This document shows positions 11,445 through 30,486 of a stretch of 33,750 bases of DNA, in pieces; the first letter of the stretch is position 1; each line of letters begins with the position of its first letter. Under the pieces are notes generated by a model that searched no databases, was not told where the DNA came from, and worked only from the letters and a program-made list of their open reading frames with translations. The DNA lies in the NCBI GenBank assembly GCA_031389635.1, contig JANMST010000262.1:1-33750 (forward strand), in the 5' to 3' direction. The translations under genes and the position numbers were made by a program. This stretch comes from Acidimicrobiia bacterium (GTDB taxonomy: Bacteria > Actinomycetota > Acidimicrobiia > Spongiisociales > ZC4RG35).

Positions 11445-12524
11445 TCAGCCCTCGATGACGGTGAAGTCGAGGACGACCCTCGCCACATCGTCATCGAGGA
11501 CCAGCTCTACCTGATAGTCACCCACAGGGAATCCGCCCGAGGGAGGGGTGATCGCCATGTAGGCCCAGGTGTGGTCGGATTGGTAGAAGAACTCGTGGTT
11601 GAACAACTCATCGCCTTGGTAGGTCCAGGTGGCGGTGATCGTTCCTGAGGTTCCGGTTGGGAGGCGGAAGACGACGTTCACCGCCGGCGAGGCGGACGTG
11701 AACTCGTCCGTGAACCAGGCCGGATCGAGAGCATCCACGGAGACATCGACCTCGTCGGCCATCCCCACCTCAAGGAAGGCATCACTCGGTATGTCGGCAG
11801 TCGGTTCCATCCACTCCCAGGTCGCCAGGATTTCGGCAACTACCGCGGCATCGTCTGCGGTGGCTCCGAAAAAGTCGGCGTGAAACAACGTTCCCCCCCG
11901 CAGTGAGAACCACGACTCCTGGTACCTGCCGGCTGTCATGAAACCGACATGGATGGCCGGCTCACCGCCCAGACAGTCGGCGACACCGGCGGCGATCATC
12001 TCCTCGAAGTCCGGCGACTGGCGGTAGCGCTCCTCGGCTCGTTGATAGATGTCGTCCAGTGAGGATGTGGGCCCGTCGAGTTGGAGGATGAGGAGATTCT
12101 GTTGAAAGTCGGGACTCGCCACCGCGTAGCTCACCAGGACCTCGGACTCTTCGACTCCCGCTTCCACCAACGTGACTTCATCGAAGTGCCACCCTGCGGT
12201 TTTGGTTTCAGTGGGTACGCGAGTCGAAACGTCGTCCCAGTCCGCGGGGTAATAGATGGCCCAATCGGGTGTTTCGAGAAGCCGCCACCCAGAGGCTGGT
12301 TCTGCCGCCGCCGGACAGTCGTTGGCGGCGGTGGTCGTTGTCGCCTCCGCGGTGGTAGTGGTGGCCCCGGCTGTTGTGGTGGTATCAGCGGCAGAGGCGG
12401 TCGTGGTGGGGGCCGCGGTTGTGCTGGTCGTGTCAGCCGTCGTGGCCGCACCCCCACCCCCGCAGGCGATCAGCAGAACAGCCAGGCCGGCGGTGGAAAC
12501 CGATAGTGAGCGGTGTCGAGTCAT
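11445..12524 (-). CDS. Secreted lipoprotein with a Thr/Ala-rich linker
   Basis: The signal peptide with lipobox is AGLAVLLIACGGG. It is followed by a low-complexity T/A linker and then a globular domain. Confidence 0.8.
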   Translation of the reverse strand: MTRHRSLSVSTAGLAVLLIACGGGGAATTADTTSTTAAPTTTASAADTTTTAGATTTTAEATTTTAANDCPAAAEPASGWRLLETPDWAIYYPADWDDVSTRVPTETKTAGWHFDEVTLVEAGVEESEVLVSYAVASPDFQQNLLILQLDGPTSSLDDIYQRAEERYRQSPDFEEMIAAGVADCLGGEPAIHVGFMTAGRYQESWFSLRGGTLFHADFFGATADDAAVVAEILATWEWMEPTADIPSDAFLEVGMADEVDVSVDALDPAWFTDEFTSASPAVNVVFRLPTGTSGTITATWTYQGDELFNHEFFYQSDHTWAYMAITPPSGGFPVGDYQVELVLDDDVARVVLDFTVIEG

Positions 12525-18805: not shown

Positions 18806-19921
18806 CTATTCGTCTTTCACGTCGAATTCGACGATCAGGCCCGTCTGGTCCTGGTCCGGGAAATCGGTGTGGTAGCCCAGTTCGGCCTTCCACGTCGCCC
18901 GATCCCAATCCTTGTTGTCCTTGGTCCAATAGTTGAAGTGAAGGACCGGGTTGTCACTGTGAAAGATGATCCTGGCCACCGAGTCGCTATCGGGATGGTT
19001 GAACTTGCGCCCGCTCGACGAAATCAGGAAGTGCTTGCTGTCCAGGCGTTCCATCAACTCGTTGCTGAGATTGTTCTTGCTGCCATGGTGAGGCACCTTG
19101 AAGGCGTCGATCTTCAGCTTGGACTCGCCCCGTTCGGCCAGCAGGCGATCGAGCCCTTCGATCAGTGAGCCGCTGCGTGCGTCACCCGTGAAGAGGACGG
19201 ACCTATTCCCATACTCGGCCAGGAAGCTGATGCTGCTGGCGTTGGGAGCGCTCGAATCTTCGCTGAACTTGCGATTGGCCCATTTCTCCACATTGGGGGC
19301 GGCGCTTCCCAAGCGATCCTTCTGATAGCGCGGAGCGTCTTCGAGCAACTTGGCACCGGTGAATTCACCACCCGGTACGAGCCCGGCGTTCTCGATTGTC
19401 TTCTTCCACTCCGCCTTCAGGCGACCGAGATCCTTGGGGTTCGGGCCGACGATTGTCAGAGTCATCCCACCCGGGAGCTTGTAAACCGGCAGCCTCGTCG
19501 TCGGGTCGGACGAGATGGCGATCGCCTTGCCACCGGTCATCTGATGATGGGGATAGCCCCGCTGGGAGATCCTCTCCGTGAGCATCTCGCCTTGCTTGGC
19601 CCCGAGGGTGTCGGCCTCCTTGATCTGTTCCCAGGCGTTGAACCAGAACTCCCCGACCTCGAGCTCGAGGTCCTCGCTGAGGAGCTTGACCATCGCGTCG
19701 ATGTGGTCGTTGTCGATGTGGGTGATCGTGATCAACTCGAACCTGCGCGTACCGTCGATGCCCTCGATCTTCTCGAGCAACCGGTCGTGAGTTCCGAGCA
19801 CTCCACCGTCGATGAGGATGCGGCGCGGCTTCTTGGGATCTCCGTATTCGATCCACAGGGCATCGCCCTCCTCGGCCGGGAGCATCTCGATGCGAAGCTT
19901 CTTTACGATGCCACCCTCCAA
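18806..19921 (-). CDS. MBL-fold metallo-hydrolase, ComEC/Rec2-nuclease-like, soluble stand-alone
   Basis: Motifs are ITHIDNDHIDA (an HxDxDH variant of HxHxDH), SVLFTGDA and KVPHHGSKNN. The probable start is TTG at 19921, because the beta-1 strand LRIEML must be included. This start overlaps the upstream gene by 19 nt. Confidence 0.8.
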   Translation of the reverse strand: MEGGIVKKLRIEMLPAEEGDALWIEYGDPKKPRRILIDGGVLGTHDRLLEKIEGIDGTRRFELITITHIDNDHIDAMVKLLSEDLELEVGEFWFNAWEQIKEADTLGAKQGEMLTERISQRGYPHHQMTGGKAIAISSDPTTRLPVYKLPGGMTLTIVGPNPKDLGRLKAEWKKTIENAGLVPGGEFTGAKLLEDAPRYQKDRLGSAAPNVEKWANRKFSEDSSAPNASSISFLAEYGNRSVLFTGDARSGSLIEGLDRLLAERGESKLKIDAFKVPHHGSKNNLSNELMERLDSKHFLISSSGRKFNHPDSDSVARIIFHSDNPVLHFNYWTKDNKDWDRATWKAELGYHTDFPDQDQTGLIVEFDVKDE

Positions 19922-22698
19922 TCAGCGTCGCCGTAGGCGACGATCGACAGCACCATGGGATATCCGTCGTGCAGTGCCTTTCGTCGCAGGCGGCGAAGAA
20001 CGTCTCCGAGTCCGGTCTCCTCACCAGCCGCCTCGGACTTCAGGAAGCTGAGCAACTCGACGGCCACCGGCACGGCATGACGACCGAGAATGGTATTGGT
20101 GGTGCTGATGACGACCGCGGCCCCGGCCCGGCGGAACCTCGGGACGAGACCCTGAAAAGGGATCTTGGGGTTGGCGGTCTCGCACCCGAGGAGCACCGCA
20201 ACGACCGGCTTGGTTCGAGGCTCACGCATACGAACCCCCACCCTATTGACGGGTTCAAGCTCTCCGCCACCGATTTCCATCCCGATCGAAACACCGTCCT
20301 GATCGGTGTGCGGCACCAGGAAAATCATCGACGGATCGAGCGTTCCCATCTTCTCTTCGAAGTCATCCCAACTCATCGCCTGGGTGGCCTTGAATCCTCC
20401 TTCGGTCAGAGTCGTGGTCAGGTCTGATCGGTCCTCAGGGCTGACCTTGTCGCTCATGCTCCACAACACCGATTCGAGAGGCGTGATGCAATTGCGACCG
20501 GCGATGGGCTCTGATTGGAGGCGATACTCCCCCGCCAGCTCGACGAAGCTCGGATCGTGGGCGTGGCGTTCGATCACGTAGCGAACCCCCCAGAAGCCGG
20601 TTGGACAAATGGGGATCTCGCCAGGTCCGTGCCGCGTTTCGCAAGGCTGGCAGGTTCCCTCCAACACCACCTTCTTCCAGCTCTTGCAGAGCTTTCGCAC
20701 CGTCGGTGGGCGCAGGGCATAGAACAACTCCACCGGGAGATAAGACTCGGGTGTGGCCGAGATGATCTGGACCCGGCCCTCGGCAAAGAACCGGTCGGTG
20801 ATGCCGTGGTCGTTGACAAAGGTCTGGTGGAGCTCCTCACCGATCGTGGCCGCGTCGAAGAGGAGATCGAGGCTCGCCGGCGAGGTCAACGATTCGAAGG
20901 CATCGGGATCGTCGGCCACCGCCGTCAGAACGCCGATGAGCTGATCGATTCGAGGCCTCAGCCCGTCAACCGATCGCAGGGTCACACCGTCCTTGCAGAT
21001 GACGGTCGCCGCCTTGTCGCCGGAATCGTTGCGGTTGACAACGATGGCCACATCGAACGTCTTCAGGTCCGACAATCCTCCGAGGCCGGCTCGCACGATC
21101 GTCTCGACCTCGATCTCGGGCCTTCCCAGTCGGGACGGACGGCTGGCCACGACGTCGGATCGGAACAGAGCCGTTTGCAGCACCCGGCCCTGGAAGTAGA
21201 GCGCGATGCGCCCGAACACCGGGCCTGGATCGGTTATCAACAACGTGAGCTCGGCCCGATCGGAGTCGCCGGTGACCGGGAGGGTGACATGGGTTCTTTG
21301 GGTTTCTTCCTGGTTGTCGGCGCAGACGAAAGCAACCTCGATTTGATTGGGTCCCTCCGGCAGGTCGTCGACCGGAACCGCCGGCGCCTCTGGGCGGGTG
21401 ATTGATTCAGAGGAAAGGACACCGATCCACACCTCGAGGGAGTAGGCCTTGCCTGCCTCGAGGGCGACCTTGTGATCGACGCCGCCCTTCTTGATGGCGC
21501 CGTTCAACACTCGAACCTCGACTACTTCGTTCTCATGGTCACCGCGGGTTCCTCCATGTGAGCCGCCGTCCCCGTTGGCGGTGGCCATCTCCTCGGGAGG
21601 GGGCAGCTCCCCGGCGGCCGTGACCAGCATGGCCAGACCGGTCGCCTCGTGACTCTCGCCTTCGAAAGTGAATCGATCGTTGCGGATCGCATCCGACAGG
21701 TAGGACGCCAGAGCTCCCGCAAAGACCTTGCCGGATATCGTGAGTCCGGGGAGCAACTGGGATATCTCCTCGGATACATCGATCTCATAGTGACGGATAC
21801 GTGAGAGCCGGTCGGCGAATCGAGCAATGGTTTCCGATATGCGGCTGTCTGCGACCAGCCGGTATGAGAGGGCGCTGTATCCGGCACCGTTGTTCGTGAT
21901 CTCGGCGCGCTTCAAGGCGAAGTCGATCGGATCGTCGTGGGAGAGACCCTCGACCACGGCGTTGAGCCATCCGGGGTTCGAGTCGGGGGCTCCCGCCAGG
22001 TGGCATCCCCAGGCCCCGAACCGACTCGCCAGCCGGTCGGCGATTCGGGCGACCTCTGCTGGCTCGACGTCGACCGGCCCGAGAACGACGACCAAACCAG
22101 GCGAGACCTCGGGCACGATATCCATCGCGTCGGCCTCCGAGGCCGACCAGGGAACGAGCAATATCTCGCATCCTTCTCTCGCGTCAACCAGAGTCTGGAG
22201 TTGCGGCCACCACAACGAACCCTCGAGCTCACCACGCAGGCGCTCGGATCGTGCATCGTCGGCCAGGATCCCGATCCGCAACGGCCACCGCCATGAGAAT
22301 TCACCCGCTCCTGGTTCGGCAAGAACGTAGGCGCTAACACCGCGCTCGGGCTCGGTCATCACCATTAGCCAGTCGTGCAATTCGCTCTGAATTCCGAAAC
22401 CAGGATTCACCTGAAGCCTGACCGGGATCGCCCCGCCAGCTCTGGCAGCAACGGCAGGCGGCAACCACTCAAGGCTGCGGCGGGGCCGCTCCCAACGCAC
22501 TGCCTTTTCGGTGTCGCTCAGGACATCTCGAAGGGCGGCCATCAAGTCACTTTGATAGACGAGTTCCGGGTGGGCTTCGAGGACGCCAGCCGCCACGATG
22601 GCGTCCGAGAACTGGCGGTCGATGAGCTGGGAACCCCAATCGCCGAGTGACTTCCTCACCTGAAAGAACGGGCTCGGTGTCCGAGGGCTGGTTGCCAT
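19903..22698 (-). CDS. Large (931 aa) protein with a C-terminal CHAT (caspase-fold peptidase) domain
   Basis: A GGAG RBS lies 6 nt before the ATG at 22698. The C-terminal ~290 aa show IISATPESYLPVELFY, His in FLVPHTD and Cys in VAVLLGCET 42 residues later, then AGAAVVISTTNTI. I do not recognise the N-terminal ~640 aa. Confidence 0.8.
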   Translation of the reverse strand: MATSPRTPSPFFQVRKSLGDWGSQLIDRQFSDAIVAAGVLEAHPELVYQSDLMAALRDVLSDTEKAVRWERPRRSLEWLPPAVAARAGGAIPVRLQVNPGFGIQSELHDWLMVMTEPERGVSAYVLAEPGAGEFSWRWPLRIGILADDARSERLRGELEGSLWWPQLQTLVDAREGCEILLVPWSASEADAMDIVPEVSPGLVVVLGPVDVEPAEVARIADRLASRFGAWGCHLAGAPDSNPGWLNAVVEGLSHDDPIDFALKRAEITNNGAGYSALSYRLVADSRISETIARFADRLSRIRHYEIDVSEEISQLLPGLTISGKVFAGALASYLSDAIRNDRFTFEGESHEATGLAMLVTAAGELPPPEEMATANGDGGSHGGTRGDHENEVVEVRVLNGAIKKGGVDHKVALEAGKAYSLEVWIGVLSSESITRPEAPAVPVDDLPEGPNQIEVAFVCADNQEETQRTHVTLPVTGDSDRAELTLLITDPGPVFGRIALYFQGRVLQTALFRSDVVASRPSRLGRPEIEVETIVRAGLGGLSDLKTFDVAIVVNRNDSGDKAATVICKDGVTLRSVDGLRPRIDQLIGVLTAVADDPDAFESLTSPASLDLLFDAATIGEELHQTFVNDHGITDRFFAEGRVQIISATPESYLPVELFYALRPPTVRKLCKSWKKVVLEGTCQPCETRHGPGEIPICPTGFWGVRYVIERHAHDPSFVELAGEYRLQSEPIAGRNCITPLESVLWSMSDKVSPEDRSDLTTTLTEGGFKATQAMSWDDFEEKMGTLDPSMIFLVPHTDQDGVSIGMEIGGGELEPVNRVGVRMREPRTKPVVAVLLGCETANPKIPFQGLVPRFRRAGAAVVISTTNTILGRHAVPVAVELLSFLKSEAAGEETGLGDVLRRLRRKALHDGYPMVLSIVAYGDADWRVAS

Positions 22699-23121
22699 CC
22701 GAAGCTCCTATCGACCTAACACGTCATACAGGTGCAATCCCACCTGATGCCAGCCAATCGGAGATGGGTTCGTCCCATCTCTCCCATCGCCTGGAAGGGG
22801 GATGTAGAGGTCATTCGGTTGGTCCACATTTTGGTCGATGCCGGGCCCGGATGAGGGGATCGTTGGCGATCGGAAGGTGCGCACTTTCCGGACTCGTCCG
22901 GAGGCGGTTCCCAGAACGCGGCTTTGAACCTGGCTTTGCGCAGAGGCAACGCCAGGGAGCGATCGCAAGCGTCTGTTGCCTTTCATGCGGTTGCCCCCCT
23001 GTATTCCTGGTCCGAACCACGGTTGAGGCAAGACAGTCCCCCAGCCGCAAGACAGATGTACCTCAGGGTTGTCTTTGGCGTGTCTCGCTGTTGAGCTGCC
23101 GCCCGAGCTCCGGAAGCGCTC

Positions 23122-26100
23122 ATGTACGGCCGCCGTCGTTTCGCTAGATTCGTGTGCATGGCTCCTATCCGGATCCATCTACTCGGTGGGTTTCTGCTCG
23201 AGCACGACGGGCGCAACATGCCTCCCATCCCGTCGGCGGCGGGCCGATCTCTGTTCGCATATCTAGTCACCAACCGCGATCGGCGGCACACGAGGGACCT
23301 TGTTGCGGGCACTTTCTGGCCGGATCTCCCGGAGCAGGGAGCCCGGCGACGACTGAGCCAGGCCTGGTGGCAGATCCAGACCTCACTTCAAGATGTCAAG
23401 TCGGGTCACCCGTTCATCGAGGCCACCCTGTTCGACGTTGCGTTTGTTGCTACGGACTACTGGCTGGACATCGCCGAATTCGACCGCCAGATCAGCACCG
23501 CTGCCAAGCAGGCCGTAACCCGCGACCCGGCCGAGTCGGGATCACTGGAACAAGCCGTTGATCTCTATCGGGGCGAGTTCCTCGCCGGCTTCTACGACGA
23601 CTGGACCCACTTCGAGAGAGAGCGGCTTCGCTCGCAGTATTTGGTGAGCCTGGAAAGACTCATCGCGCTGCACAAGAGCCGGGCCGACTATGAGACAGCC
23701 CAGTACTTCGCCCGACGATTGAGCTTGCATGACCCGCTGCGAGAGTCGGCTCATAGGGAGGTGATGAGGCTCAGCTTCCTGCTCGGCCACAGCAATGAGG
23801 CACTTCGACAATACGAGCGGTGTGCGGACATCCTTTCCGAGGAACTGGGGAGACGCCCCTCAACAGAAACCGAAGAGCTCCGCATCCACATCGCTCAGAT
23901 GCGAGAAAAGGGTGAGAGCCCATTTGCTCCCACCATCAATGCTCCCCTTCTGAATGCGGCCCAGCGAATCCCCCTTGTGGGCCGAACCGAGGAGAGGAGC
24001 AGCATCCTCCGACGGATGGAGGACACGCTGCACGGCCGGGGGGGCGTGATCTTGGTCGAGGGGGAATCGGGCATTGGAAAGTCCAGACTCGTGGAGGAGT
24101 TGATCGACGATGCTCAGTGGCGCGGGCTGAGCCCCCTGCTGGCGACCTGTTCTGAAGCTGAGTTGCTTCACCCCTTGCAGGGTCTACGTCGGGCATTGCA
24201 AAGCGGATTGACCCGCCTTCGCTTCGATCAACTACAGGCAGTCTTGCATCGGAACACCCTCGCTGAGCTGGCCGAGTTGGTGCCTCACATCAGGGGCTGG
24301 CTCAACGACTCCGGGCTCGCTGCCGGCCCACCAGACGGCAACGCCCGAGAACAGCACCTACACACCATTCGCTCCGCGTTGTTCGCTCTTGCCGACCTCA
24401 ACCCCATCGTGCTCTTTATCGACGACGCCCAATGGCTTGACGAAGAGTCGGCGGCCGTTCTGGCAGAACTCGCTCCTGATATCGCCGATCACGGTCTGCT
24501 GATCCAATTGAGCTACAGAGACAGCGAGGTCAGGGATCGGCCGGTGATGTGGCAGCGACTCCTCGACATCGACGCCAGGACCAACACCCAACGGATCAAA
24601 ATCATTGCTCTCGACCTGGTCGAGTCAGGACGACTCGTGGAAGAGAGCTTGGGCGAAACCAAGGCAGACCCCGACCTGGTTGAGGGTCTGTACTTGGAAA
24701 CCGGGGGCAATCCTCTCTTCATCCTCGAGTCTCTGCGAGGGTGGCATGAGAACACGCTGGAAGGGCTCGGGCACGAAAGCCTGGATCGAAGACTCACGCT
24801 CCCGCCCACCAGCGGTGTCACGAGCGTCATCAGCCGCCGGCTCCAATCGCTTTCGGCCCAAGCCAAGGCGGTCCTCGAAGCCACCGCCGTGCTGGGGGGT
24901 CAGGCAAGATCGCGGCTGGTGGCATCCATGACCGGCTTGCCAATGGCTACCACGGTCCAATCGGTGACAGATCTGGTCCGGCGGGGCCTGCTACGTGAGA
25001 ACGTTGCGGGCTACGAGGTACCCCACGACCAGCTTCGGCGAGTGGTGTTGGGCGGGATCGACGGCGCCATGCTGAAGGTGATCCATGAGCGGGCCGCCAA
25101 TGCAATCGAGACCGAACAGCCCGACCTCGTCGAGGACCTCGCCTATCACTTTTCGGCCAGCCACATCGCCGACAAGGCTTACCGCTACTCGCTTCTATCC
25201 GCGAGGAGAGCCGTTGCCCTGGGTGCCTACGACATCGCGGTGCGACAGTTCGAGAACGCTGCCCGTTGGGCGGTGGGCGACGAGCGCTACCCGGTCCTCA
25301 CGGAATGGGAGGAAGCATTGGCGGTTCTCGGTCTACGAAGCGAGCAACACCGCATTCTCAACGAGTTGGCGGAGGTGGCAGTCGGTCCGGAAAAGAAAGC
25401 CGAGCTGGCCCGTCGACGGAGCCGGCTCTTCGCCGAGGAGGGCAATCACCGCCAGGCGGTGGAGGTTGCCAACCAGGCCCTCGTCGACAGCGAAGCGGGT
25501 GTGCCGCCGTTGCTGAAGGCGAGGTTGCTTCAGAACCTGGGATTGGTCATGGCCCGCTCGGGCCGGGCCCAGGAAGCCCTCCCCCATCTCGAAGCGGCCG
25601 TCGAAGTACTGGGCGACGATGTCGTTTCCAGAGCCGCCGCCCTGTGCGAGCTCGGCAACGTCCTCTGCGAGGTGCAGGAGTACCAGCGAGCCTCGGTTGC
25701 CTTGGCCGAGGCGAAGAGCCTCTACGAAGACATCGGCGACCTGCGAGGCACCGCCGAGGTCAACTCTCAACTGGCAATTGTGTCGATGGAGTTGGGTGAC
25801 GGGGACACCGCCATCAGCCTCTATACCGCAGCACTGCAGATCTCCCGCGAGCTCGACTACCGCCGCGGTCAGGCCGTCAACCTCGCCAACCTGGCCAACG
25901 TCCTCTACACCCAGGGAAAGGTCGGCCCCGCTCTGGGCCATTACCAGGAGGCAGCCTCGATTTTCTCCGAGATCGGGAATCGACTGGGGGCGGCCCTCGT
26001 ATCGACCAACGCAGCTTCGGTGAGATATCTGGTATTGGGAGATGCCTCGGTTGAGGCCGATATCCGACGCTCCCTCGCCTACTTCGAACAGGAAGACCAT

Positions 26101-26961
26101 CGATGGGGGCAGGCATTCTGCCAGGAGCACCTGGCCACTATCAGCCAGGGCAGCGGCGACCTCGCAACGGCCCGCGATCTCATAAACCGGGGCCTTGCTC
26201 TCCTGGAAGGGGGAGGACACCGCTGGGTCGAGGTCCATCTCCGCCGGCTCGGTGTGGAAGTCGAACTCGAGGCCAACGAGCCCGACCAGGCGGCGCTCCA
26301 GGTCGAAATCGCACGCCGGCTTTGCGACGAGCTCGGTCTGGCCGATGTTGCTCCCACCATCGAAAGCCTCGATGCCCTCGTGAAACTGAGCTACGGGCAG
26401 GTGGACGAGGCCCTCATGTCCGCTCGACGAGCTACCAACCTTCTGCAGAGAGGGACCGAGTTGCCGCATCTGGTCTGGTTCAGGCGCTACTTGGTCGCCA
26501 AAGCTGCGGGAGCGGATACCGATGCGGTCGACTCCTTGGCCAGGTCAGTGGCGCTCCTTACCCGGGTTCTCGATTCGTTTGGAACCGATGATCGCCGCCT
26601 GGCCATTACACGGGCCCACCATGTTCGAGCGATCATCGAGGCGCGGGATCGAAGCTTTCCCCAGATCCAGGAAATTCGCCTCCCGCTGGCCGGGATTCCC
26701 CTCGGGCGATCGTTAAAGGGCGGGGACTGGACCCAGGTCCGCTGGACCGTGTCCGATCCCTCCGATTTCGACGTGCCCGACCCGGTCGGGCGGCGTCGGC
26801 TCAGAATCAGGCGTTTCCTCGATGAGGCGGCCCGGCAGGGCGCCGACCCCCGTATCGAGGATGTCGCCACCGCACTGGGGGTGAGCGTGGCCACGGTCCG
26901 CAGGGACGTGGCCGAACTCAGACGAGCGGGTTCCGGACTGAGCACCCGCGGCAGCCGTTAA
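23122..26961 (+). CDS. SARP/AfsR-like regulator: OmpR-type wHTH + BTAD + AAA/NB-ARC-like ATPase + TPR + extra C-terminal HTH (1279 aa)
   Basis: Domain evidence is IRIHLLGGFLLEHDG, the BTAD segment (LRESAHREVMRLSFLLGHSNEALRQYERCADILSEELG), Walker A LVEGESGIGKSRL, Walker B VLFIDDAQWLDEES and TPR helices. The C-terminus IEDVATALGVSVATVRRDVAELRRAG is DeoR-like. The start is 23122 (GGAAG RBS) or 23158. Confidence 0.9.
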   Translation: MYGRRRFARFVCMAPIRIHLLGGFLLEHDGRNMPPIPSAAGRSLFAYLVTNRDRRHTRDLVAGTFWPDLPEQGARRRLSQAWWQIQTSLQDVKSGHPFIEATLFDVAFVATDYWLDIAEFDRQISTAAKQAVTRDPAESGSLEQAVDLYRGEFLAGFYDDWTHFERERLRSQYLVSLERLIALHKSRADYETAQYFARRLSLHDPLRESAHREVMRLSFLLGHSNEALRQYERCADILSEELGRRPSTETEELRIHIAQMREKGESPFAPTINAPLLNAAQRIPLVGRTEERSSILRRMEDTLHGRGGVILVEGESGIGKSRLVEELIDDAQWRGLSPLLATCSEAELLHPLQGLRRALQSGLTRLRFDQLQAVLHRNTLAELAELVPHIRGWLNDSGLAAGPPDGNAREQHLHTIRSALFALADLNPIVLFIDDAQWLDEESAAVLAELAPDIADHGLLIQLSYRDSEVRDRPVMWQRLLDIDARTNTQRIKIIALDLVESGRLVEESLGETKADPDLVEGLYLETGGNPLFILESLRGWHENTLEGLGHESLDRRLTLPPTSGVTSVISRRLQSLSAQAKAVLEATAVLGGQARSRLVASMTGLPMATTVQSVTDLVRRGLLRENVAGYEVPHDQLRRVVLGGIDGAMLKVIHERAANAIETEQPDLVEDLAYHFSASHIADKAYRYSLLSARRAVALGAYDIAVRQFENAARWAVGDERYPVLTEWEEALAVLGLRSEQHRILNELAEVAVGPEKKAELARRRSRLFAEEGNHRQAVEVANQALVDSEAGVPPLLKARLLQNLGLVMARSGRAQEALPHLEAAVEVLGDDVVSRAAALCELGNVLCEVQEYQRASVALAEAKSLYEDIGDLRGTAEVNSQLAIVSMELGDGDTAISLYTAALQISRELDYRRGQAVNLANLANVLYTQGKVGPALGHYQEAASIFSEIGNRLGAALVSTNAASVRYLVLGDASVEADIRRSLAYFEQEDHRWGQAFCQEHLATISQGSGDLATARDLINRGLALLEGGGHRWVEVHLRRLGVEVELEANEPDQAALQVEIARRLCDELGLADVAPTIESLDALVKLSYGQVDEALMSARRATNLLQRGTELPHLVWFRRYLVAKAAGADTDAVDSLARSVALLTRVLDSFGTDDRRLAITRAHHVRAIIEARDRSFPQIQEIRLPLAGIPLGRSLKGGDWTQVRWTVSDPSDFDVPDPVGRRRLRIRRFLDEAARQGADPRIEDVATALGVSVATVRRDVAELRRAGSGLSTRGSR

Positions 26962-27078
26962 CGCCACGACCGTTGGTTGCCGGCATGAGCGCTTAGTTCG
27001 GCCAACTCCACCCTTTCCCACGAGATAGGGGTGAGACAAGCGTCCTGCATGCTCACCCACAGAAGAAGGAGGTCGAAA

Positions 27079-27171
27079 ATGCGTCGAGTTCTGACGCTCG
27101 TAACCCTGGCAATAACCACCCTGCTCGTAACCGCGGCCCCGGCCCTGGCAAGCGTGGTCAACATTCATTGA
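27079..27171 (+). CDS. Unannotated 30-codon ORF: Sec-type signal peptide followed by the hexapeptide SVVNIH (candidate secreted pro-peptide)
   Basis: An AAGGAGG RBS (27066..27072) lies 6 nt before the ATG. The translation is MRRVLTLVTLAITTLLVTAAPALA/SVVNIH, with a positive n-region, a hydrophobic core and an AxA site. It lies 117 nt downstream of, and co-directional with, the TPR regulator. Confidence 0.45.
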   Translation: MRRVLTLVTLAITTLLVTAAPALASVVNIH

Positions 27172-27180
27172 ATCAACCAA

Positions 27181-27196
27181 GCCGCCAGCAGGCGGC
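27181..27196 (+). terminator. Short GC hairpin (GCCGCC-AGCA-GGCGGC) 10 nt after the small ORF
   Basis: The inverted repeat is seen directly. There is no U-tract, so the terminator call is weak. Confidence 0.25.
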
Positions 27197-27353
27197 GGCC
27201 GCCTCGGACAGGTTCAACATTTAGCTCGTGGTGGACCCAGCGAATAAGCAGGCCAATCGGTCCCAGTCGACGGGGGAATGTCACTGGAGACCAGGGGCTG
27301 CTCCGGATCGCTAGGGGAGTCGGAGAACCCGTCCGGGGCGGCTGTTCCTATTG

Positions 27354-27476
27354 ACGTGGTGCGTGGTGCGTAGGAACCCGTGGTGGGTGGTGCGTGGTGC
27401 GTTCCGTAAAAGCCTTCTCGTGATTGATATATCGCGTGTTTGAAACGCACCACACACCACGCACCACGCACCACGC
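27354..27476. repeat. Heptad repeat array (GTGGTGC) in inverted configuration, forming a long imperfect hairpin
   Basis: Direct heptads sit at 27356-62, 27363-69, 27380-86, 27387-93 and 27394-400. Inverted heptads (GCACCAC/ACACCAC) sit at 27447-53, 27454-60, 27461-67 and 27468-74. The AT-rich ~40-nt loop contains TTGATATAT. Confidence 0.85.
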
Positions 27477-27479
27477 TCT

Positions 27480-28559
27480 TTATGGTGCTTTCGGGTGGGG
27501 GATTAGGTACTCGGGGTCGTCCCACTGGATCCGGGCCTGGTCGACCGCCAACTTGTAGGTCGAATCGGCCGTCATGCGGTCCTTTACGCTCTGATGGATC
27601 CGGGGGTCGGGGGGCTCTTCGGGCCCGGACTTGAAGGCCTCGATCGTCCTGGTCCTGAAGGTGAGCAGCGCCCAGATCCAACCGGCCTTGTGGACCCGGC
27701 CCCGGGCATGGGTCGGATCGAGTTTGCAGGTCTTGGCGTAAGCCCGCGGCCGCAAGAGCAAACCCTCATCGAGGGCACGATCGGTCATCCATTTCAGCGA
27801 CACCACGGACAACTCGACCTGGTCCTTGAAGCCACCACCCACATCGCTGTGGACACCGGCAAACCACACCTCCCGTAGGTCCGGAGTTGTCTTCGCGTCG
27901 GCGAGGTACTCCCGATAGGGTCGCCGGCGCTCGTCGATGGAGACTGCGTGTCGAACCACGCGGGCATTGGGGAGTTGCCGGGTGTAAAGCCATTGCGGAT
28001 TCCACCGCAGTAGTCCGAGGGCCTTGACCGAGTCCCACAGCCCCAGGAAGTGGAGAGGAAGAGACAAGCTGCCCTCGCTCTCGACGGAGAAAGATTTGGC
28101 GAACCGATCGATCCTGTCCCAATCGTCCTTCTTCCAGGAGTTGCCTTTGGTGTAGGCGGACACGAGGTAATTGACGAGGTTCTCGGCCCCGCGTCTCATC
28201 AGTCCGCCCCGGTGAGCCATGCCAACCAGGGCGCGGGCCGTGTAGGCCCCTCGGCTAAAACCGAAAACATAGACACGGTCGCCGGGTTCATAGACCTGCA
28301 TCAGGTAGGTGTACGCCTCGGCCATATTGACCTTGATTCCGAAGCCGAATGTGAGTCCGAGCAGCTTGGTCAGGGCTCTTCCCCACGACGTCCAGGCGCC
28401 CTGGGCGCCGAAGGTACCAACCCCGGGGTCGTAGAAGGCGACCTGACGTTCCGGGTCTGAGAGGTCGAGCATCTCATAGAGGTTCACCACGTTCGAGGTG
28501 CCCCGGGCCTTGATCTGGTTGCCAGTGCCATCGAGGCACAAAACGATGTTCTTGGCCAT
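27480..28559 (-). CDS. DUF2235 alpha/beta hydrolase (T6SS Tle1-like phospholipase family)
   Basis: The N-terminus is MAKNIVLCLDGTGNQ. The nucleophile elbow is VFGFSRGAYTARAL. Other family segments are FLGLWDSV and FAGVHSDVGGG. Confidence 0.85.
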   Translation of the reverse strand: MAKNIVLCLDGTGNQIKARGTSNVVNLYEMLDLSDPERQVAFYDPGVGTFGAQGAWTSWGRALTKLLGLTFGFGIKVNMAEAYTYLMQVYEPGDRVYVFGFSRGAYTARALVGMAHRGGLMRRGAENLVNYLVSAYTKGNSWKKDDWDRIDRFAKSFSVESEGSLSLPLHFLGLWDSVKALGLLRWNPQWLYTRQLPNARVVRHAVSIDERRRPYREYLADAKTTPDLREVWFAGVHSDVGGGFKDQVELSVVSLKWMTDRALDEGLLLRPRAYAKTCKLDPTHARGRVHKAGWIWALLTFRTRTIEAFKSGPEEPPDPRIHQSVKDRMTADSTYKLAVDQARIQWDDPEYLIPHPKAP

Positions 28560-29096: not shown

Positions 29097-29345
29097 TCAA
29101 CCCTTGGCTGTCGTTCGATCTTTTGCTGGGCTCGTTTCCGGAGCCAGAGCAGCCTCAGCCGCTCGGAGTGCACCTGGTAGGTCGAGATCCTCCCCTGCTC
29201 TGATCTCCCTGTTGCGGTCGCTGACATCCATTCTCAGGACGAGCTTCTCGCGAAGTTCGTTGGCGAAGTTGCGATCCACCGGTGGTCGCTCGCCTCCCAG
29301 ATCGTTGTAGATCTTCTCGGCCGCGCCCCACAAACGGGCCGCCGG
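29097..29345 (-). pseudogene. Detached C-terminal tail of a large ATPase-TPR regulator, in a different frame from the cyclase ORF
   Basis: The frame reads ARLWGAAEKIYNDLGGERPPVDRNFANELREKLVLRMDVSDRNREIRAGEDLDLPGALRAAEAAL. This matches the conserved tail pattern (RLLGAAEALRE.G.PLPP..R.......G..L.L..A...AL) of SARP/cyclase-ATPase-TPR proteins. No ATPase or TPR body lies upstream. Confidence 0.55.
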
Positions 29346-30486
29346 GTTGACCTTGTCCTGGGCTGCGGGCGGCGTCGAGGGAGCGCAGAGGCGGAAAGCG
29401 TTCCATCAACCCGTCGGCAGCCACCTGGTAGATGTGATCGTCCGAGGGGAAGTCCTTGAGGCGGTGCCGGCCGAGATCGACGAGCGAGAAGTTCTGGCGG
29501 CCCCCGACGAGGCGGGCGGTGGTGGATGAAACCAGTATCTGACCGCCGTGACCGGCGGCCGCAATCCGGGCACCACGGTGGACGTCGATACCGAGGTAAC
29601 GGTCGCCAACCAGGGTTGCTTCGCCAGTGTGAAGGCCCATCCGCACTCTGACGATGGCGTGGTCGGGCCAGGCATGTGCGGCCAGTTCGCGCTGCGCCCC
29701 TACGGCCCCGGCCACGGCAGAGACCGCCGACGGAAAGACGGCGAAGAAGCCGCCACCGGCCGTGTCCACCTCGGCTCCGCCACCCCGGCTGATCGCACTG
29801 CGAACGATCGCGTGGTGTGCCTCGATGAGTGTGGAGTAGCGGTCCCCGAGCTGGCGCAGCAGAGCCGTCGACCCTTCGATGTCTGTGAAGAGATACGTGA
29901 CAGTGCCCTGCGGAAGCGAGGACTCCCCTTCCTCCCGGTCGAGGAAGCGCTCGCTGATCAGAACCGCCAGATCCTCCGACACCAACTGCCCCAGCTCTTC
30001 TGGAGTCGAGAAAGTTCGGTAACTGAGCTCGGCGTCCGACATGATCTCTCCGAGGAACCGGGTCAAGCCGGGTTGGCGGCCCGGGGAAGGCTCCTTCACG
30101 TAGATGAGGCGAGGCCTCTCCTTCCATTCCGCGAACTCTTCTTCGATGCCCGTGGGGCCGCCGCCCTCGGCGGCCCAGCCGATGCTCTCCCAGTAGATGC
30201 CGACGAAAACGTCGCTTTGGTCGAGATATGAGAGGTATACGTCGCGAGGTGAGTGATCACGAGCGCCTACCTCGAACATGATCGGGGTCAGCCGCAGCTG
30301 CTCGATCGCCTCCCGGGCGTACTGGCGTTCTGCGGCGAGTTCTTCAAGAGTCGAACTCACGAAGATTCTGAGCCGACGATCTGGGGTCGTAATCACTGTT
30401 TGGGCGACTTCAGCTGGCGGGCTGATCCGCCTGTCGTCGACGACCGAGTCCGAGCGCCTCCATGTCGGCATGGTCGAGATCGTCAC
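29155..30486 (-). CDS. DUF4062-like domain + class III cyclase homology domain protein, apparently truncated (the last ~70 codons look out of frame)
   Basis: The DUF4062-like segments are RIFVSSTLEELAAERQYAREAI and DVFVGIYWESIG. The cyclase segments are VTYLFTDIEGST, RMGLHTGEATL and FPPLRSL. After about 29370 the frame becomes Arg/Gly/Gln-rich junk. The GTG at 30396 would avoid the 77-nt overlap with the upstream gene. Confidence 0.65.
   Translation of the reverse strand: MTISTMPTWRRSDSVVDDRRISPPAEVAQTVITTPDRRLRIFVSSTLEELAAERQYAREAIEQLRLTPIMFEVGARDHSPRDVYLSYLDQSDVFVGIYWESIGWAAEGGGPTGIEEEFAEWKERPRLIYVKEPSPGRQPGLTRFLGEIMSDAELSYRTFSTPEELGQLVSEDLAVLISERFLDREEGESSLPQGTVTYLFTDIEGSTALLRQLGDRYSTLIEAHHAIVRSAISRGGGAEVDTAGGGFFAVFPSAVSAVAGAVGAQRELAAHAWPDHAIVRVRMGLHTGEATLVGDRYLGIDVHRGARIAAAGHGGQILVSSTTARLVGGRQNFSLVDLGRHRLKDFPSDDHIYQVAADGLMERFPPLRSLDAARSPGQGQPGGPFVGRGREDLQRSGRRATTGGSQLRQRTSREARPENGCQRPQQGDQSRGGSRPTRCTPSG

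What the first reader, a model, noticed from the sequence alone, without database searches (positions are those of the whole stretch)
26962..27171. Unannotated signal-peptide + hexapeptide mini-ORF immediately downstream of a TPR regulator: RRNPP/arbitrium-like receptor-propeptide layout in a GC-rich actinobacterium
Seen in sequence: AAGGAGG lies 6 nt before the ATG at 27079. The 30-aa product is MRRVLTLVTLAITTLLVTAAPALA|SVVNIH, a textbook Sec signal (basic n-region, hydrophobic core, AxA site) leaving only six residues. It sits 117 nt after, and co-directional with, the 1279-aa SARP-ATPase-TPR-HTH gene. A GGTGAG-N16-CTCACC inverted repeat (27030..27057) lies in the gap. Established knowledge: RRNPP quorum-sensing systems (Rap/Phr, NprR/NprX, PlcR/PapR, AimR/AimP) pair a TPR-type receptor with a small adjacent gene. 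The signal-sequence-bearing product of that gene is processed to a short C-terminal peptide, which is a hexapeptide for arbitrium AimP. To my knowledge these systems are described essentially only in Firmicutes and their phages. Inference: SVVNIH or a trimmed form could be a diffusible ligand for the TPR domain of the giant regulator. This would link cell-cell signalling to the divergent CHAT-MBL operon.
Basis: partly seen in the sequence, partly recalled or inferred. Interest (0 to 1): 0.75.

Follow-up and report, generated by a model that had tools for sequence, protein, structure and literature searches.

The report
Secreted hexapeptide gene beside SARP regulator
A 30-codon gene for an exported six-residue peptide sits next to a giant SARP-ATPase-TPR regulator in about 50 Acidimicrobiia genomes, behind a promoter of the type that regulator class activates, so it is a strong candidate for peptide cell-cell signalling in Actinomycetota.

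Summary
The 30-aa ORF at 27079-27171 is a real, selected gene.

- **Conservation.** All 50 non-redundant orthologous regulator loci (Acidimicrobiia MAGs) carry a 30-32-aa ORF 66-209 nt downstream, nearly all with a GGAGG-like site. Ala is at -1 in 50/50, Ala at -3 in 45/50 and Pro at -4 in 44/50. The tail is 5-7 aa, with 37 variants. A 51st locus keeps only a leaderless 9-codon remnant of the tail.
- **Selection.** Tails are held by synonymous codon changes. Two genomes carry two modules with different tails.
- **New promoter finding.** Most loci share a promoter upstream of the ORF: two direct repeats 11 bp apart (TGAGAYA / GAGACRG), 8 bp, then a -10 hexamer (CATAST). This is the published SARP target geometry. 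It occurs once per genome in the four genomes scanned.
It is real but genus-specific and overlaps this box.
- **Neighbours.** Flanking genes are not conserved, so the link to the divergent operon is unsupported.
- **Receptor.** It is an AfsR-like STAND protein, not an RRNPP family member.
- **Untested.** Peptide binding to the TPR sensor remains inference.

No paper describing this module was found.

The parts
23122..26961 (+). Regulator of 1279 aa. Domains in order: SARP (OmpR-type wHTH + BTAD, about 15-260), NOD/AAA_16 (284-453, Walker A G317-G319-K320 invariant), arm, about 13 TPRs (about 690-1180), a beta-hairpin and a DeoR-like HTH (about 1220-1279). No transmembrane segment.
   Evidence: Pfam; NCBIfam AfsR hit; PDB AfsR SARP domain 8hvr; invariant columns; AF2 model of residues 680-1279 with pLDDT 93.3; maximum Kyte-Doolittle(19) of 1.54.
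26986..26998 (+). Upstream conserved element, TGAGCGCTTAGTT here. The family consensus is TGA[GC][CG]G.AAGGT, placed 33-36 nt before the first box repeat. In many loci it contains the regulator's stop codon. Function unknown; it may be a third repeat or the site of the C-terminal HTH.
   Evidence: Box-anchored alignment of 44 distinct sites. The exact 12-mer lies at the module in 5 of 5 genomes, with extra hits at the control level.
27021..27039 (+). SARP-type box of two direct repeats 11 bp apart: CGAGATA (27021-27027) and TGAGACA (27032-27038). Read as the heptamer GAGACAA (27033-27039), the 3' repeat ends 8 bp before the -10 hexamer.
   Evidence: AGA is invariant in both repeats across 23 distinct sites. 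Found in 24 of the first 26 loci and in most of the later loci. Unique in the G000 genome at 26.8 bits, against 15.0 for the next hit and 14.0 for the control. The SARP geometry rule is taken from PMC10936776.
27048..27053 (+). -10 hexamer CATGCT (family consensus CATAST). The transcript is predicted to start near 27060.
   Evidence: A is invariant at position 2 and T is at position 6 in 21 of 23 sites, at fixed spacing. The start site is inferred, not mapped.
27030..27057 (.). It overlaps repeat 2 and the -10 hexamer and lies upstream of the predicted start. It is conserved in G001 only.
   Evidence: Sequence; fold at -16.5 kcal/mol, z -3.9; absent from the other lineages.
27066..27072 (+). 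Shine-Dalgarno site AAGGAGG, 6 nt before the ATG.
   Evidence: Sequence. GGAGG-like sites precede the ORF in the orthologous loci.
27079..27150 (+). Signal peptide of 24 aa: n-region MRR, an h-region of about 16 residues, and c-region P-A-L-A.
   Evidence: Across 50 loci, -1 is Ala in 50/50, -3 is Ala in 45/50 and -4 is Pro in 44/50. SignalP was not available.
27151..27171 (+). Predicted released peptide SVVNIH, plus the stop codon.
   Evidence: Tails are 5-7 aa in 50 loci, with 37 variants. They are kept by synonymous codon changes. The same tail class occurs in G001 and G185.
27173..27216 (+). GC-rich stem-loop after the stop (core GCCGCC-agca-GGCGGC, 27181-27196). A possible terminator without a T-run.
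   Evidence: Fold at -18.4 kcal/mol with z -1.6, which is weak here. Across 50 loci the downstream hairpins have a median of -22.8 against -17.8 for the control. The consensus terminator scan found none.
23071..23086 (-). Weak second box (GAGACA-N5-AAGAC) in the divergent intergenic region. It points towards the 931-aa gene and lies 36 nt before the regulator's ATG.
   Evidence: One-mismatch pattern hit, not significant alone: 3 hits found against 1.4 expected. It sits in a 22-nt block conserved with G001. Below 13 bits in the window and 13.8 in G001; no such site in other lineages.

Best explanation
This is a self-contained two-gene signalling module.

1. **Shown.** The micro-gene 27079-27171 is a real, selected, monocistronic unit made of a box, a -10 hexamer, a Shine-Dalgarno site, 30 codons and a hairpin. 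It is always paired with one subfamily of large SARP regulators that have a C-terminal HTH.
2. **Inferred from the published SARP rule.** Two SARP domains of the adjacent regulator bind the 11-bp-spaced repeats side by side and recruit RNA polymerase to the weak -10. The regulator therefore activates the peptide gene, as AfsR activates afsS.
3. **Inferred from signal-peptide rules.** The pre-peptide is exported by Sec and cut by signal peptidase I after P-A-x-A. This releases SVVNIH directly, with no pro-region.
4. **Hypothesis.** The peptide accumulates outside the cell and is re-imported by an Opp/Dpp-type permease. It then binds the concave groove of the 13-repeat TPR sensor and relieves STAND autoinhibition. 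This closes an autoinducing quorum-sensing-like loop with lineage-specific peptide variants (pherotypes).

What the loop controls beyond the peptide gene is unknown.
For: **The gene is real.**
- 50 of 50 non-redundant orthologous loci have it, at regulator identities of 25-88%.
- Codon-position entropy is 1.25/0.85/1.59. Synonymous exceed non-synonymous codon changes in close pairs: 15/5, 17/7, 3/0 and 3/0.
- Tails such as ILRPGH, SISDMS and SVSDMS are kept through synonymous changes, including an AGC/TCT serine switch.
- A profile of the peptide finds 47 cluster representatives among 1.84 billion. Most are 29-32 aa. All but one repeat-protein false hit and one 59-aa read-through form end 5-8 residues after A-x-A.

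**The pairing is specific.**
- The peptide profile hits only the 9 loci with the full regulator architecture, out of 80 SARP/AAA/TPR loci holding 17,202 small ORFs.
- It is single-copy in G000.
- Reverse look-up from a peptide lands 78 nt after a BTAD-AAA_16-TPR_12-DUF1670 protein.
- Neighbour genes are not conserved.

**The promoter fits a SARP target.**
- Conserved repeats and -10 at fixed spacing match the SARP rule in PMC10936776.
- The site is unique in G000 and in G092, G032 and G096.

**The tail is the functional part.**
- Within the xxxxM[ST] class, pairwise identity is 0.65 for the tail and 0.48 for the h-region.
- G322 keeps the box, Shine-Dalgarno site, ATG and LRPGHG but has lost the signal peptide, and its regulator is intact.
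- G034 and G263 each carry two modules with different tails.
- One genus (g36) shows four tail variants in six genomes.

**The receptor is plausible.**
- The regulator has no transmembrane segment.
- Its TPR superhelix is most like LGN/Pins, TSK and OGT, which hold extended peptides in their groove.
- G000 has at least 7 SBP_bac_5 binding proteins and 2 signal peptidase I genes.
Against: - No direct evidence exists for export, cleavage, import or binding.
- The box and the upstream element occur only at the peptide gene. No output regulon is visible, and a loop without an output is incomplete. This favours the rival in which the peptide itself is the output.
- A crude test found no excess of receptor residues shared by the two clades that both use VVNI[RH] tails: 2 exclusive columns against 0-4 for other clade pairs.
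- The regulator tree is a star, so tail classes track descent and do not prove co-evolution.
- Three lineages (6 of 50 loci) have a different upstream sequence that the box matrix does not recognise, and two more score weakly.
- Every genome is a MAG, so no culture is at hand.
- The h-region of about 16 residues is long enough that an uncleaved membrane anchor cannot be excluded from sequence alone.
Confidence: 0.5

Rival explanations
1. One-way AfsR-to-afsS-like relay. The regulator senses something else through its TPR/NOD, such as a metabolite, phosphorylation or a foreign protein, and its dedicated output is the secreted peptide. The peptide then acts elsewhere, as a signal read by another receptor or another cell, or in an envelope or extracellular role. 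It is not the regulator's own ligand.
For: - The SARP box and the second conserved element are found only at the peptide gene in the genomes scanned, so the peptide gene looks like the sole target.
- AfsR and its adjacent small target afsS are a precedent.
- There is no receptor-tail covariation signal.
- In this window the module sits among defence-like genes, including an LmuA/Avs1a-like MBL.
Against: - No other conserved partner gene, such as a kinase, transporter or second receptor, travels with the module.
- Tail diversification into many variants, two modules with different tails in one genome, and the leaderless variant that would make the tail inside the cell are easier to explain if the cognate receptor is the adjacent cytoplasmic protein.
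Confidence: 0.3
2. The product is not cleaved. It stays as a 30-aa single-pass membrane micro-protein (N-terminus in, tail out) that modulates a membrane process, or acts as a small hydrophobic toxin-like peptide.
For: The hydrophobic core is about 16 residues with a maximum Kyte-Doolittle(15) of 2.29. The positive N-terminus fits the inside-positive rule. Small hydrophobic peptides of about 30 aa are a known class (own knowledge).
Against: - Ala at -1 is invariant, Ala at -3 and Pro at -4 are nearly so, and the distance to the C-terminus is fixed. A plain anchor would not need any of this.
- The tail is more conserved than the h-region within a class.
- G322 keeps the tail and discards the hydrophobic part.
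Confidence: 0.1
3. The signal is a fragment of the signal peptide itself, as with enterococcal sex pheromones cut from lipoprotein signal sequences. The tail would only provide a cleavage context.
For: The precedent is from own knowledge. The n- and c-regions are highly conserved, at 0.95 and 0.87 pairwise identity.
Against: - The h-region is the least conserved part, at 0.48.
- There is no lipobox.
- Tails are under amino-acid-level selection.
- The leaderless variant keeps only the tail.
Confidence: 0.03
4. It is a chance ORF in a non-coding spacer, and the conserved DNA serves another purpose.
For: The ORF's GC3 (0.67) is modest for this genome. No Pfam or NCBIfam family covers it.
Against: The frame, length, start context, A-x-A site and stop position are conserved across regulators only 25-45% identical, with a synonymous substitution pattern.
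Confidence: 0.01

Closest known systems
AfsR-AfsS of Streptomyces (a large SARP and its adjacent small target gene)
   Same: - The receptor has the same architecture: SARP (OmpR wHTH + BTAD), then NOD/STAND ATPase, then a TPR sensor.
- A small gene lies immediately 3' of the regulator.
- The target promoter has two direct repeats 11 bp apart, close to a weak -10, in place of a -35.
   Different: - AfsS is a 63-aa cytoplasmic protein (own knowledge, and PMC10936776 for its role). It has no signal peptide and no similarity to this product, which is a Sec pre-peptide leaving 5-7 residues.
- The regulator here has about 13 TPRs and an extra C-terminal DeoR-like HTH that AfsR lacks.
- The repeat sequence is TGAGAYA, not the afs box.
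- The lineage is Acidimicrobiia, not Streptomyces.
RRNPP(A) peptide quorum sensing of Bacillota and their phages (Rap/Phr, NprR/NprX, PlcR/PapR, Rgg/SHP, ComR/ComS, AimR/AimP)
   Same: - The layout is two genes: a cytoplasmic TPR-containing receptor and transcription factor next to a micro-gene.
- The C-terminal 5-8 residues are the variable, specific part.
- Many variants exist, with more than one module per genome.
- The receptor probably activates the propeptide gene, as PlcR, ComR and Rgg do (own knowledge; reviews).
   Different: - The receptor is not homologous. It is 1279 aa and a STAND ATPase, with SARP and DeoR-type DNA-binding domains, whereas RRNPP receptors are about 300-450 aa with an XRE-type HTH.
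- No RRNPP structure appears among the top 50 fold matches.
- There is no pro-region, so signal peptidase alone would release the peptide. Phr, PapR and AimP need extra extracellular proteolysis.
- The phylum is Actinomycetota. The RRNPP_detector survey treats actinobacterial quorum sensing as small-molecule based.
MalT/GutR-type STAND transcription activators
   Same: In these, an inducer binds the C-terminal repeat sensor and relieves autoinhibition, followed by ATP-dependent activation (PMC10936776). That is the activation logic proposed here.
   Different: Their inducers are sugars or polyols, not a genetically encoded peptide. Their DNA-binding domain is LuxR-type and C-terminal.
Leaderless communication peptides (RopB/SIP class)
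   Same: The G322 variant encodes only M-LRPGHG-PS behind the same promoter. That is a leaderless short peptide next to its presumed receptor (PMC10518010 listed).
   Different: It is a single case in one MAG. It derives from a signal-peptide form by deletion, and its export route is unknown.

Membership tests
RRNPP(A) receptor-propeptide systems | Receptor homologous to Rap/NprR/PlcR/PrgX/Rgg/AimR: about 300-450 aa, a TPR-like peptide-binding domain, usually an N-terminal XRE-type HTH | tested here: not met
   The receptor is 1279 aa with BTAD + AAA_16 + TPR_12 + HTH_DeoR. The Foldseek top 50 are LGN, TSK, OGT and similar, with no RRNPP receptor. PDB sequence hits are LGN, OGT and AfsR only.
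RRNPP(A) receptor-propeptide systems | Adjacent small gene encoding an exported propeptide whose C-terminal part is the mature signal | tested here: met
   A 30-32-aa ORF with an n-h-c signal peptide and a 5-7-aa tail in 50 of 50 loci. Export itself is not shown.
RRNPP(A) receptor-propeptide systems | Mature peptide re-imported by an oligopeptide permease and bound by the receptor's TPR groove | not testable with these tools
   Opp-type binding proteins are present in G000, which is only permissive. The complex prediction gave no verdict.
RRNPP(A) receptor-propeptide systems | Occurrence in Bacillota and their mobile elements | tested here: not met
   All loci are Acidimicrobiia MAGs by record title or kinship.
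Large SARP (AfsR-like STAND) regulators | N-terminal SARP domain (OmpR-type DNA-binding domain plus BTAD) | tested here: met
   BTAD E 2.5e-24. NCBIfam AfsR hit over residues 15-320. AfsR SARP structure 8hvr aligned to residues 16-259, E 2.3e-6.
Large SARP (AfsR-like STAND) regulators | NOD/STAND ATPase with intact Walker motifs, followed by a TPR sensor | tested here: met
   AAA_16 E 3.5e-21. G317, G319, K320, D435 and D440 are invariant in 14 orthologues. The model shows about 26 helices, or 13 TPRs, at pLDDT 93.
Large SARP (AfsR-like STAND) regulators | Target promoter with direct repeats at 11-bp (or 22-bp) periodicity, the 3' repeat 8 bp from the -10 | tested here: met
   Repeat starts are 11 bp apart. 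The heptamer GAGACRG is followed by 8 bp and then CATAST in 23 distinct sites. The rule is quoted from PMC10936776. Counted from TGAGACA, the gap is 9 bp. Binding itself was not tested.
Large SARP (AfsR-like STAND) regulators | AfsS-type small target protein (63 aa, cytoplasmic) | tested here: not met
   The product is a 30-aa signal peptide plus a 6-aa tail, with no family hit in Pfam or NCBIfam.
Sec (type I) signal peptides | Basic n-region, hydrophobic h-region, c-region with small residues at -3/-1, often a helix breaker at about -4 to -6 | tested here: met
   Position-by-position counts over 50 loci: R/K at positions 2-4, an h-region of about 16 residues, Pro at -4 in 44/50, Ala at -3 in 45/50 and Ala at -1 in 50/50. 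SignalP was not available and cleavage is not shown.

The most novel reading that the evidence does not exclude
This is the first genetically encoded peptide quorum-sensing system of Actinomycetota, and the first in which the cytoplasmic receptor is a STAND/large-SARP activator.

- A Sec signal peptide is fused directly to the mature 5-7-residue pheromone.
- After re-import, the pheromone is the long-sought kind of inducer for a SARP TPR sensor domain.
- It drives its own SARP-box promoter.
- Pherotype diversification and occasional leaderless 'private' variants occur.
Probability: 0.45. Interest if true: 0.9.

Novelty: new variant of a known kind. Interest (0 to 1): 0.8.

Why it matters
- **A new phylum for peptide signalling.** Peptide signalling through cytoplasmic receptors is regarded as a Bacillota trait, and actinobacterial quorum sensing as small-molecule based. 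A conserved receptor-peptide module in Acidimicrobiia would extend the principle to another phylum, with a non-homologous receptor. That would be convergent evolution of the same layout.
- **An open question becomes testable.** The AfsR structural paper says it is unknown whether any inducer binds the TPR sensor of large SARPs. Here each regulator comes with a candidate ligand written in the genome. Synthetic hexapeptides and purified domains are enough to test it.
- **A minimal pheromone precursor.** The design of signal peptide plus mature peptide, with no pro-region, is the simplest conceivable precursor.
- **A source of orthogonal parts.** The 37 or more natural tails, paired with their receptors and a defined 33-bp promoter, would form a ready set of orthogonal parts if the loop is real.
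- **Ecology.** Acidimicrobiia are abundant and mostly uncultured in soils, sediments and waters, so a signalling system in them is of ecological interest.

Tried and rejected
- **Complex prediction** (TPR region 680-1179 with the 30-aa pre-peptide): no verdict, with scores of 0.33, 0.02 and 0.02. It counts neither for nor against binding.
- **Sequencing runs**. Only assembled contigs were available. One 242-nt contig from a soil RNA library covers 27095-27337. Its strand is unknown, DNA carry-over is possible, and it could equally be the 3' end of the convergent gene. It is not used as expression evidence.
- **Rfam at gathering thresholds** over the whole window: nothing.
- **Consensus sigma-70 promoter and intrinsic terminator scan** of 26800-27600: nothing. 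This is expected for a SARP-dependent promoter with no -35 and for a T-less hairpin.
- **Receptor-tail covariation by exclusive shared residues:** no signal.
- **Regulator tree:** the backbone is unresolved, so it cannot tell whether the VVNI[RH] tails in two clades are shared ancestry or convergence.
- **Regulon search.** The box matrix in G000 and box patterns in three other genomes found only the peptide promoter. The upstream 12-mer likewise.
- **The weak second box at 23071-23086** is not significant on its own.
- **Two equal-length 359-aa ORFs** (11445-12524 and 27480-28559) were checked as a possible IS-element pair. They are unrelated.
- **A transposon end** as an explanation for the repeats at 27355-27476 was dropped. 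They belong to a genome-wide short repeat.
- **G038** is an unpublished genome that appears only in the tally.
Full report
**Observation**

- AAGGAGG lies at 27066-27072, six bases before ATG 27079.
- The ORF 27079-27171 reads MRRVLTLVTLAITTLLVTAAPALASVVNIH.
- It starts 117 nt after the stop of the co-directional 1279-aa gene 23122-26961.
- GGTGAG/CTCACC at 27030-27057 is a true inverted repeat (-16.5 kcal/mol, z -3.9).

The large gene is BTAD + AAA_16 + TPR + a C-terminal DeoR-like HTH/DUF1670. Its N-terminus matches the AfsR SARP domain by NCBIfam and by the solved structure 8hvr. The next gene, 27480-28559 on the minus strand, is convergent and is a DUF2235/Tle1-like hydrolase. The mini-ORF therefore sits in a 518-nt spacer between two gene ends.

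**Origin**

The window is contig C112 of a 3.7-Mb, 549-contig MAG that is 96.7% complete. Titles of related public records place the family in Acidimicrobiia, Actinomycetota. Some records carry other submitter labels, but the kinship search places the same contigs in the window's order. For example, the 48,347-bp contig labelled Acidobacteria is G346:C21.

**The mini-ORF is a conserved gene**

I took orthologues of the regulator from 40 relatives, from named genome records and from a 400-genome sample of the class, and read the DNA after each stop codon.
- In all 50 non-redundant loci there is an ORF of 30 (36 loci), 31 (8) or 32 (6) codons. It starts 66-209 nt after the regulator, mostly about 100 nt, and nearly always has a GGAGG-like site 5-9 nt before the start.
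- The regulators are only 25-45% identical to the window's, apart from the sister genome G001 at 88%.
- The peptide has R/K at positions 2-4 and a hydrophobic core of about 16 residues. Pro is at -4 in 44/50, Ala at -3 in 45/50 and Ala at -1 in 50/50.
- The tail is 6 residues in 40 loci, 7 in 9 and 5 in 1, with 37 distinct tails.
- Variation is highest at third codon positions (entropy 1.25/0.85/1.59). Close pairs show more synonymous than non-synonymous codon changes (15/5, 17/7, 3/0, 3/0).
- Identical tails are encoded by different codons in different genomes. ILRPGH varies at five of six codons, and a serine in SVSDMS is AGC in two genomes and TCT in a third.
- A profile of the peptide finds it once in the window's genome (44.5 bits; every other hit is the signal peptide of a large protein).
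- Among 1.84 billion cluster representatives the profile finds 47. Most are 29-32 aa. All but one false positive and one read-through form end 5-8 residues after A-x-A. The longer ones are mostly N-terminally extended gene calls.
- Public pipelines have called several of these genes, always as 'hypothetical protein' or with no name.

**The pairing is specific, but the neighbourhood is not**

- Of the window's other genes, only the two flanking ones recur, and only in G001.
- Elsewhere the module sits next to phosphofructokinase, a UvrD helicase, a SpoIIE phosphatase, a histidine kinase, hydantoinase, an MFS transporter and others.
- I took the 80 SARP/AAA/TPR loci as a control, holding 17,202 small ORFs. 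The peptide profile hits only the nine loci whose regulator has the full architecture with the C-terminal HTH. It hits none of the Micromonospora, Streptomyces, Nocardia, Chloroflexota or other relatives.
- Starting from a peptide instead, the encoding contigs show it 78 nt after a 1297-aa BTAD-AAA_16-TPR_12-DUF1670 protein (one organism in several samples).
- The regulator's C-terminal part was found in 35 of 401 sampled Acidimicrobiia genomes and 20 of 178 genera. It is dense in some families (12/12, 5/9, 3/5, 2/2) and patchy in the window's own (10/48).

**A conserved promoter of SARP type**

Anchoring the spacers on the start codon revealed a shared architecture. It was present in 24 of the first 26 loci and in most of the later ones. 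In order it reads: T-G-A-G-A-Y-A, five bases, G-A-G-A-C-R-G, eight bases, C-A-T-A-S-T, then about 25-45 bases to the start codon.
- In 23 distinct sites, AGA is invariant in both repeats. The A of the hexamer is invariant and its last T is present in 21.
- In the window the parts are CGAGATA 27021-27027, TGAGACA 27032-27038 and CATGCT 27048-27053.
- The AfsR structural paper states the rule for SARP targets: direct repeats separated by 11 or 22 bp, with the 3' repeat 8 bp from the -10 element. The box overlaps and replaces a poor -35, and two SARP protomers bind side by side (PMC10936776).
- The geometry here fits that rule: 8 bp if the heptamer is read as GAGACRG, 9 bp if read as TGAGACA.
- A position matrix of box plus hexamer scores 26.8 bits at this site in the window's genome. 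The next best hit scores 15.0 and the best hit in the reversed-sequence control scores 14.0.
- The lineage-specific version of the pattern occurs exactly once, at the peptide gene, in G092 (a single contig), G032 and G096.
- Within 5-18 kb of each locus the only box hit is the peptide promoter.
- Three lineages (six loci) have other sequences at that place, some with their own short repeats at about 10-11 bp spacing. Two more loci score weakly.
- A second conserved element, TGA[GC][CG]G.AAGGT, lies 33-36 nt upstream of the box (26986-26998 in the window). It often contains the regulator's stop codon, but it is kept where the stop has moved. Its exact 12-mer is also essentially unique to the module.
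- After the ORF most loci have a strong stem-loop. The median is -22.8 kcal/mol against -17.8 for windows inside the regulator gene (p 2e-5, kin not independent). The window's own hairpin is weak.

It lies upstream of the predicted start, so if it matters it does so as DNA.

**The receptor**

- The AF2 model of residues 680-1279 is confident (pLDDT 93.3, pTM 0.86). It shows about 26 helices forming about 13 TPRs, then a beta-hairpin and a three-helix HTH.
- Its closest solved folds are LGN/Pins, TSK/BRU1 and OGT TPR superhelices, which hold extended peptides in their concave groove. No Rap, NprR, PlcR, Rgg or AimR structure is in the top 50.
- Walker A and B residues are invariant.
- There is no hydrophobic segment of membrane-spanning strength, so the protein is cytoplasmic.
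- The genome has at least seven Opp/Dpp-type binding proteins and two signal peptidase I genes. This is permissive only.

**Which part of the peptide matters**

- Within the largest class (tails xxxxM[ST], 20 distinct peptides), pairwise identity is 0.95 for the n-region, 0.48 for the h-region, 0.87 for the c-region and 0.65 for the tail.
- Six genomes of one genus carry four tails: SVSDMS, SVSDMT, SVSNMS/SVKDMS and SLSDMS.
- G034 and G263 each carry two modules: AVVNIR with NGNWGS, and AVVNIR with NGDWGV.
- In G322 the regulator is intact. The micro-gene keeps its box, Shine-Dalgarno site and ATG but encodes only M-LRPGHG-PS. Its relatives encode a 25-aa signal peptide followed by ILRPGHG. 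This is one MAG, so an assembly or population variant cannot be excluded, but selection there kept the tail and not the hydrophobic part.
- Across the family the tails share a loose motif: a small residue, V/I, x, D/N, M/I, then S/R/G/H. Other classes are built on RPGH, WG and FHR.

**Mechanism and its limits**

*Shown:* a selected micro-gene with its own conserved promoter, always paired with this regulator subfamily.

*Inferred from family rules:* the adjacent SARP domain activates that promoter, and the product is exported and cut after A-x-A, releasing SVVNIH with no further processing.

*Hypothesis:* the peptide returns through a peptide permease and is the inducer of the TPR sensor. That would follow the MalT-type order of inducer binding, release of autoinhibition and ATP-dependent activation, and would make an autoinducing loop.

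The main weakness is that no output is visible. Both conserved DNA elements occur only at the peptide gene, so the peptide may be the output of a one-way relay, as in AfsR to afsS. I give the loop 0.5, the relay 0.3, an uncleaved membrane micro-protein 0.1, and the rest little. That the module itself is real and that the ORF is translated I hold at about 0.95.

**Comparison and novelty**

- The module works like an RRNPP cassette, but it fails the membership test on the receptor and on taxonomy.
- It is a member of the large-SARP/AfsR-like STAND regulators by domain content and target geometry. Its small partner gene is unrelated to afsS, and it has an extra C-terminal HTH.
- Full-text searches for RRNPP or peptide signalling in Actinobacteria, for Acidimicrobiia, and for ligands of large SARPs found nothing describing it.
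- The RRNPP_detector paper treats actinobacterial signals as small molecules.
- The AfsR paper states that an inducer for the TPR sensor is unknown.

I rate it a new variant of known kinds. It is of high interest because each natural receptor comes with its candidate ligand, and a synthetic hexapeptide is enough to test the idea.

Noticed in passing
window 27355-27476: Arrays of the heptamer GGTGCGT (and its complement) form nested inverted repeats just before the 3' end of the convergent gene. About 50 partial copies are scattered over the genome. Public contigs pile up and break there (depth over 100). It looks like a REP- or MITE-like genome-wide repeat.
   Followed up: partly
L124 (G322:C72, about 23770-23880): A leaderless variant of the micro-gene. 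The box, Shine-Dalgarno site and ATG are kept, but only 9 codons remain (M-LRPGHG-PS) and the 25-aa signal peptide of its relatives is missing. The regulator beside it is intact (open frame of 1278 aa).
   Followed up: partly
L014 + L028 (G034), L125 + L141 (G263): Two genomes each carry two complete regulator-peptide modules with unrelated tails (AVVNIR with NGNWGS or NGDWGV). The AVVNIR module also has a different upstream box.
   Followed up: partly
window 26986-26998 and the equivalent place in 40 or more loci: A conserved element, TGA[GC][CG]G.AAGGT, lies 33-36 nt upstream of the SARP box. It often includes the regulator's stop codon, but it is kept where the stop has moved upstream, as in the window. 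It may be the site of the regulator's second (C-terminal) DNA-binding domain.
   Followed up: partly
window 23071-23086 (-): A weak box-like site (GAGACA-N5-AAGAC) sits 36 nt before the regulator's ATG and points towards the divergent 931-aa gene. It lies in a 22-nt block conserved with G001 amid diverged flanks. No counterpart exists in other lineages.
   Followed up: partly
window 18806-19921 (-) and 19903-22698 (-): The MBL-fold protein matches LmuA (PADLOC, 1.2e-66) and Avs1a (NCBIfam, 3e-57), which are anti-phage system components. This may be a defence operon.
   Followed up: partly
window 16495-18684 (-), 29155-30486 (-), 27480-28559 (-): Other signalling or defence-flavoured genes lie nearby: a protein with N-terminal TPRs followed by Trans_reg_C and BTAD (a SARP in reversed domain order), a DUF4062 + adenylate/guanylate cyclase fusion, and a DUF2235/Tle1-like hydrolase.
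   Followed up: no
L041 (Anaerolineae MAG, JALUTT010000088.1): A 32%-identical full-length relative has a weakly matching C-terminal HTH but no recognisable micro-gene in the 398 nt available after its stop. That stretch holds tandem copies of a short repeat instead.
   Followed up: no
P0038 (59 aa): One database representative reads through the usual stop (…ASVSDMT followed by 29 more residues). It may be a sequencing or frame error, or a lost stop codon.
   Followed up: no
L015 vs L017: Regulators from different families (f1 and f6) are sister taxa with 100% support and share the identical tail SISDMS. This suggests lateral transfer of the whole module between families.
   Followed up: no
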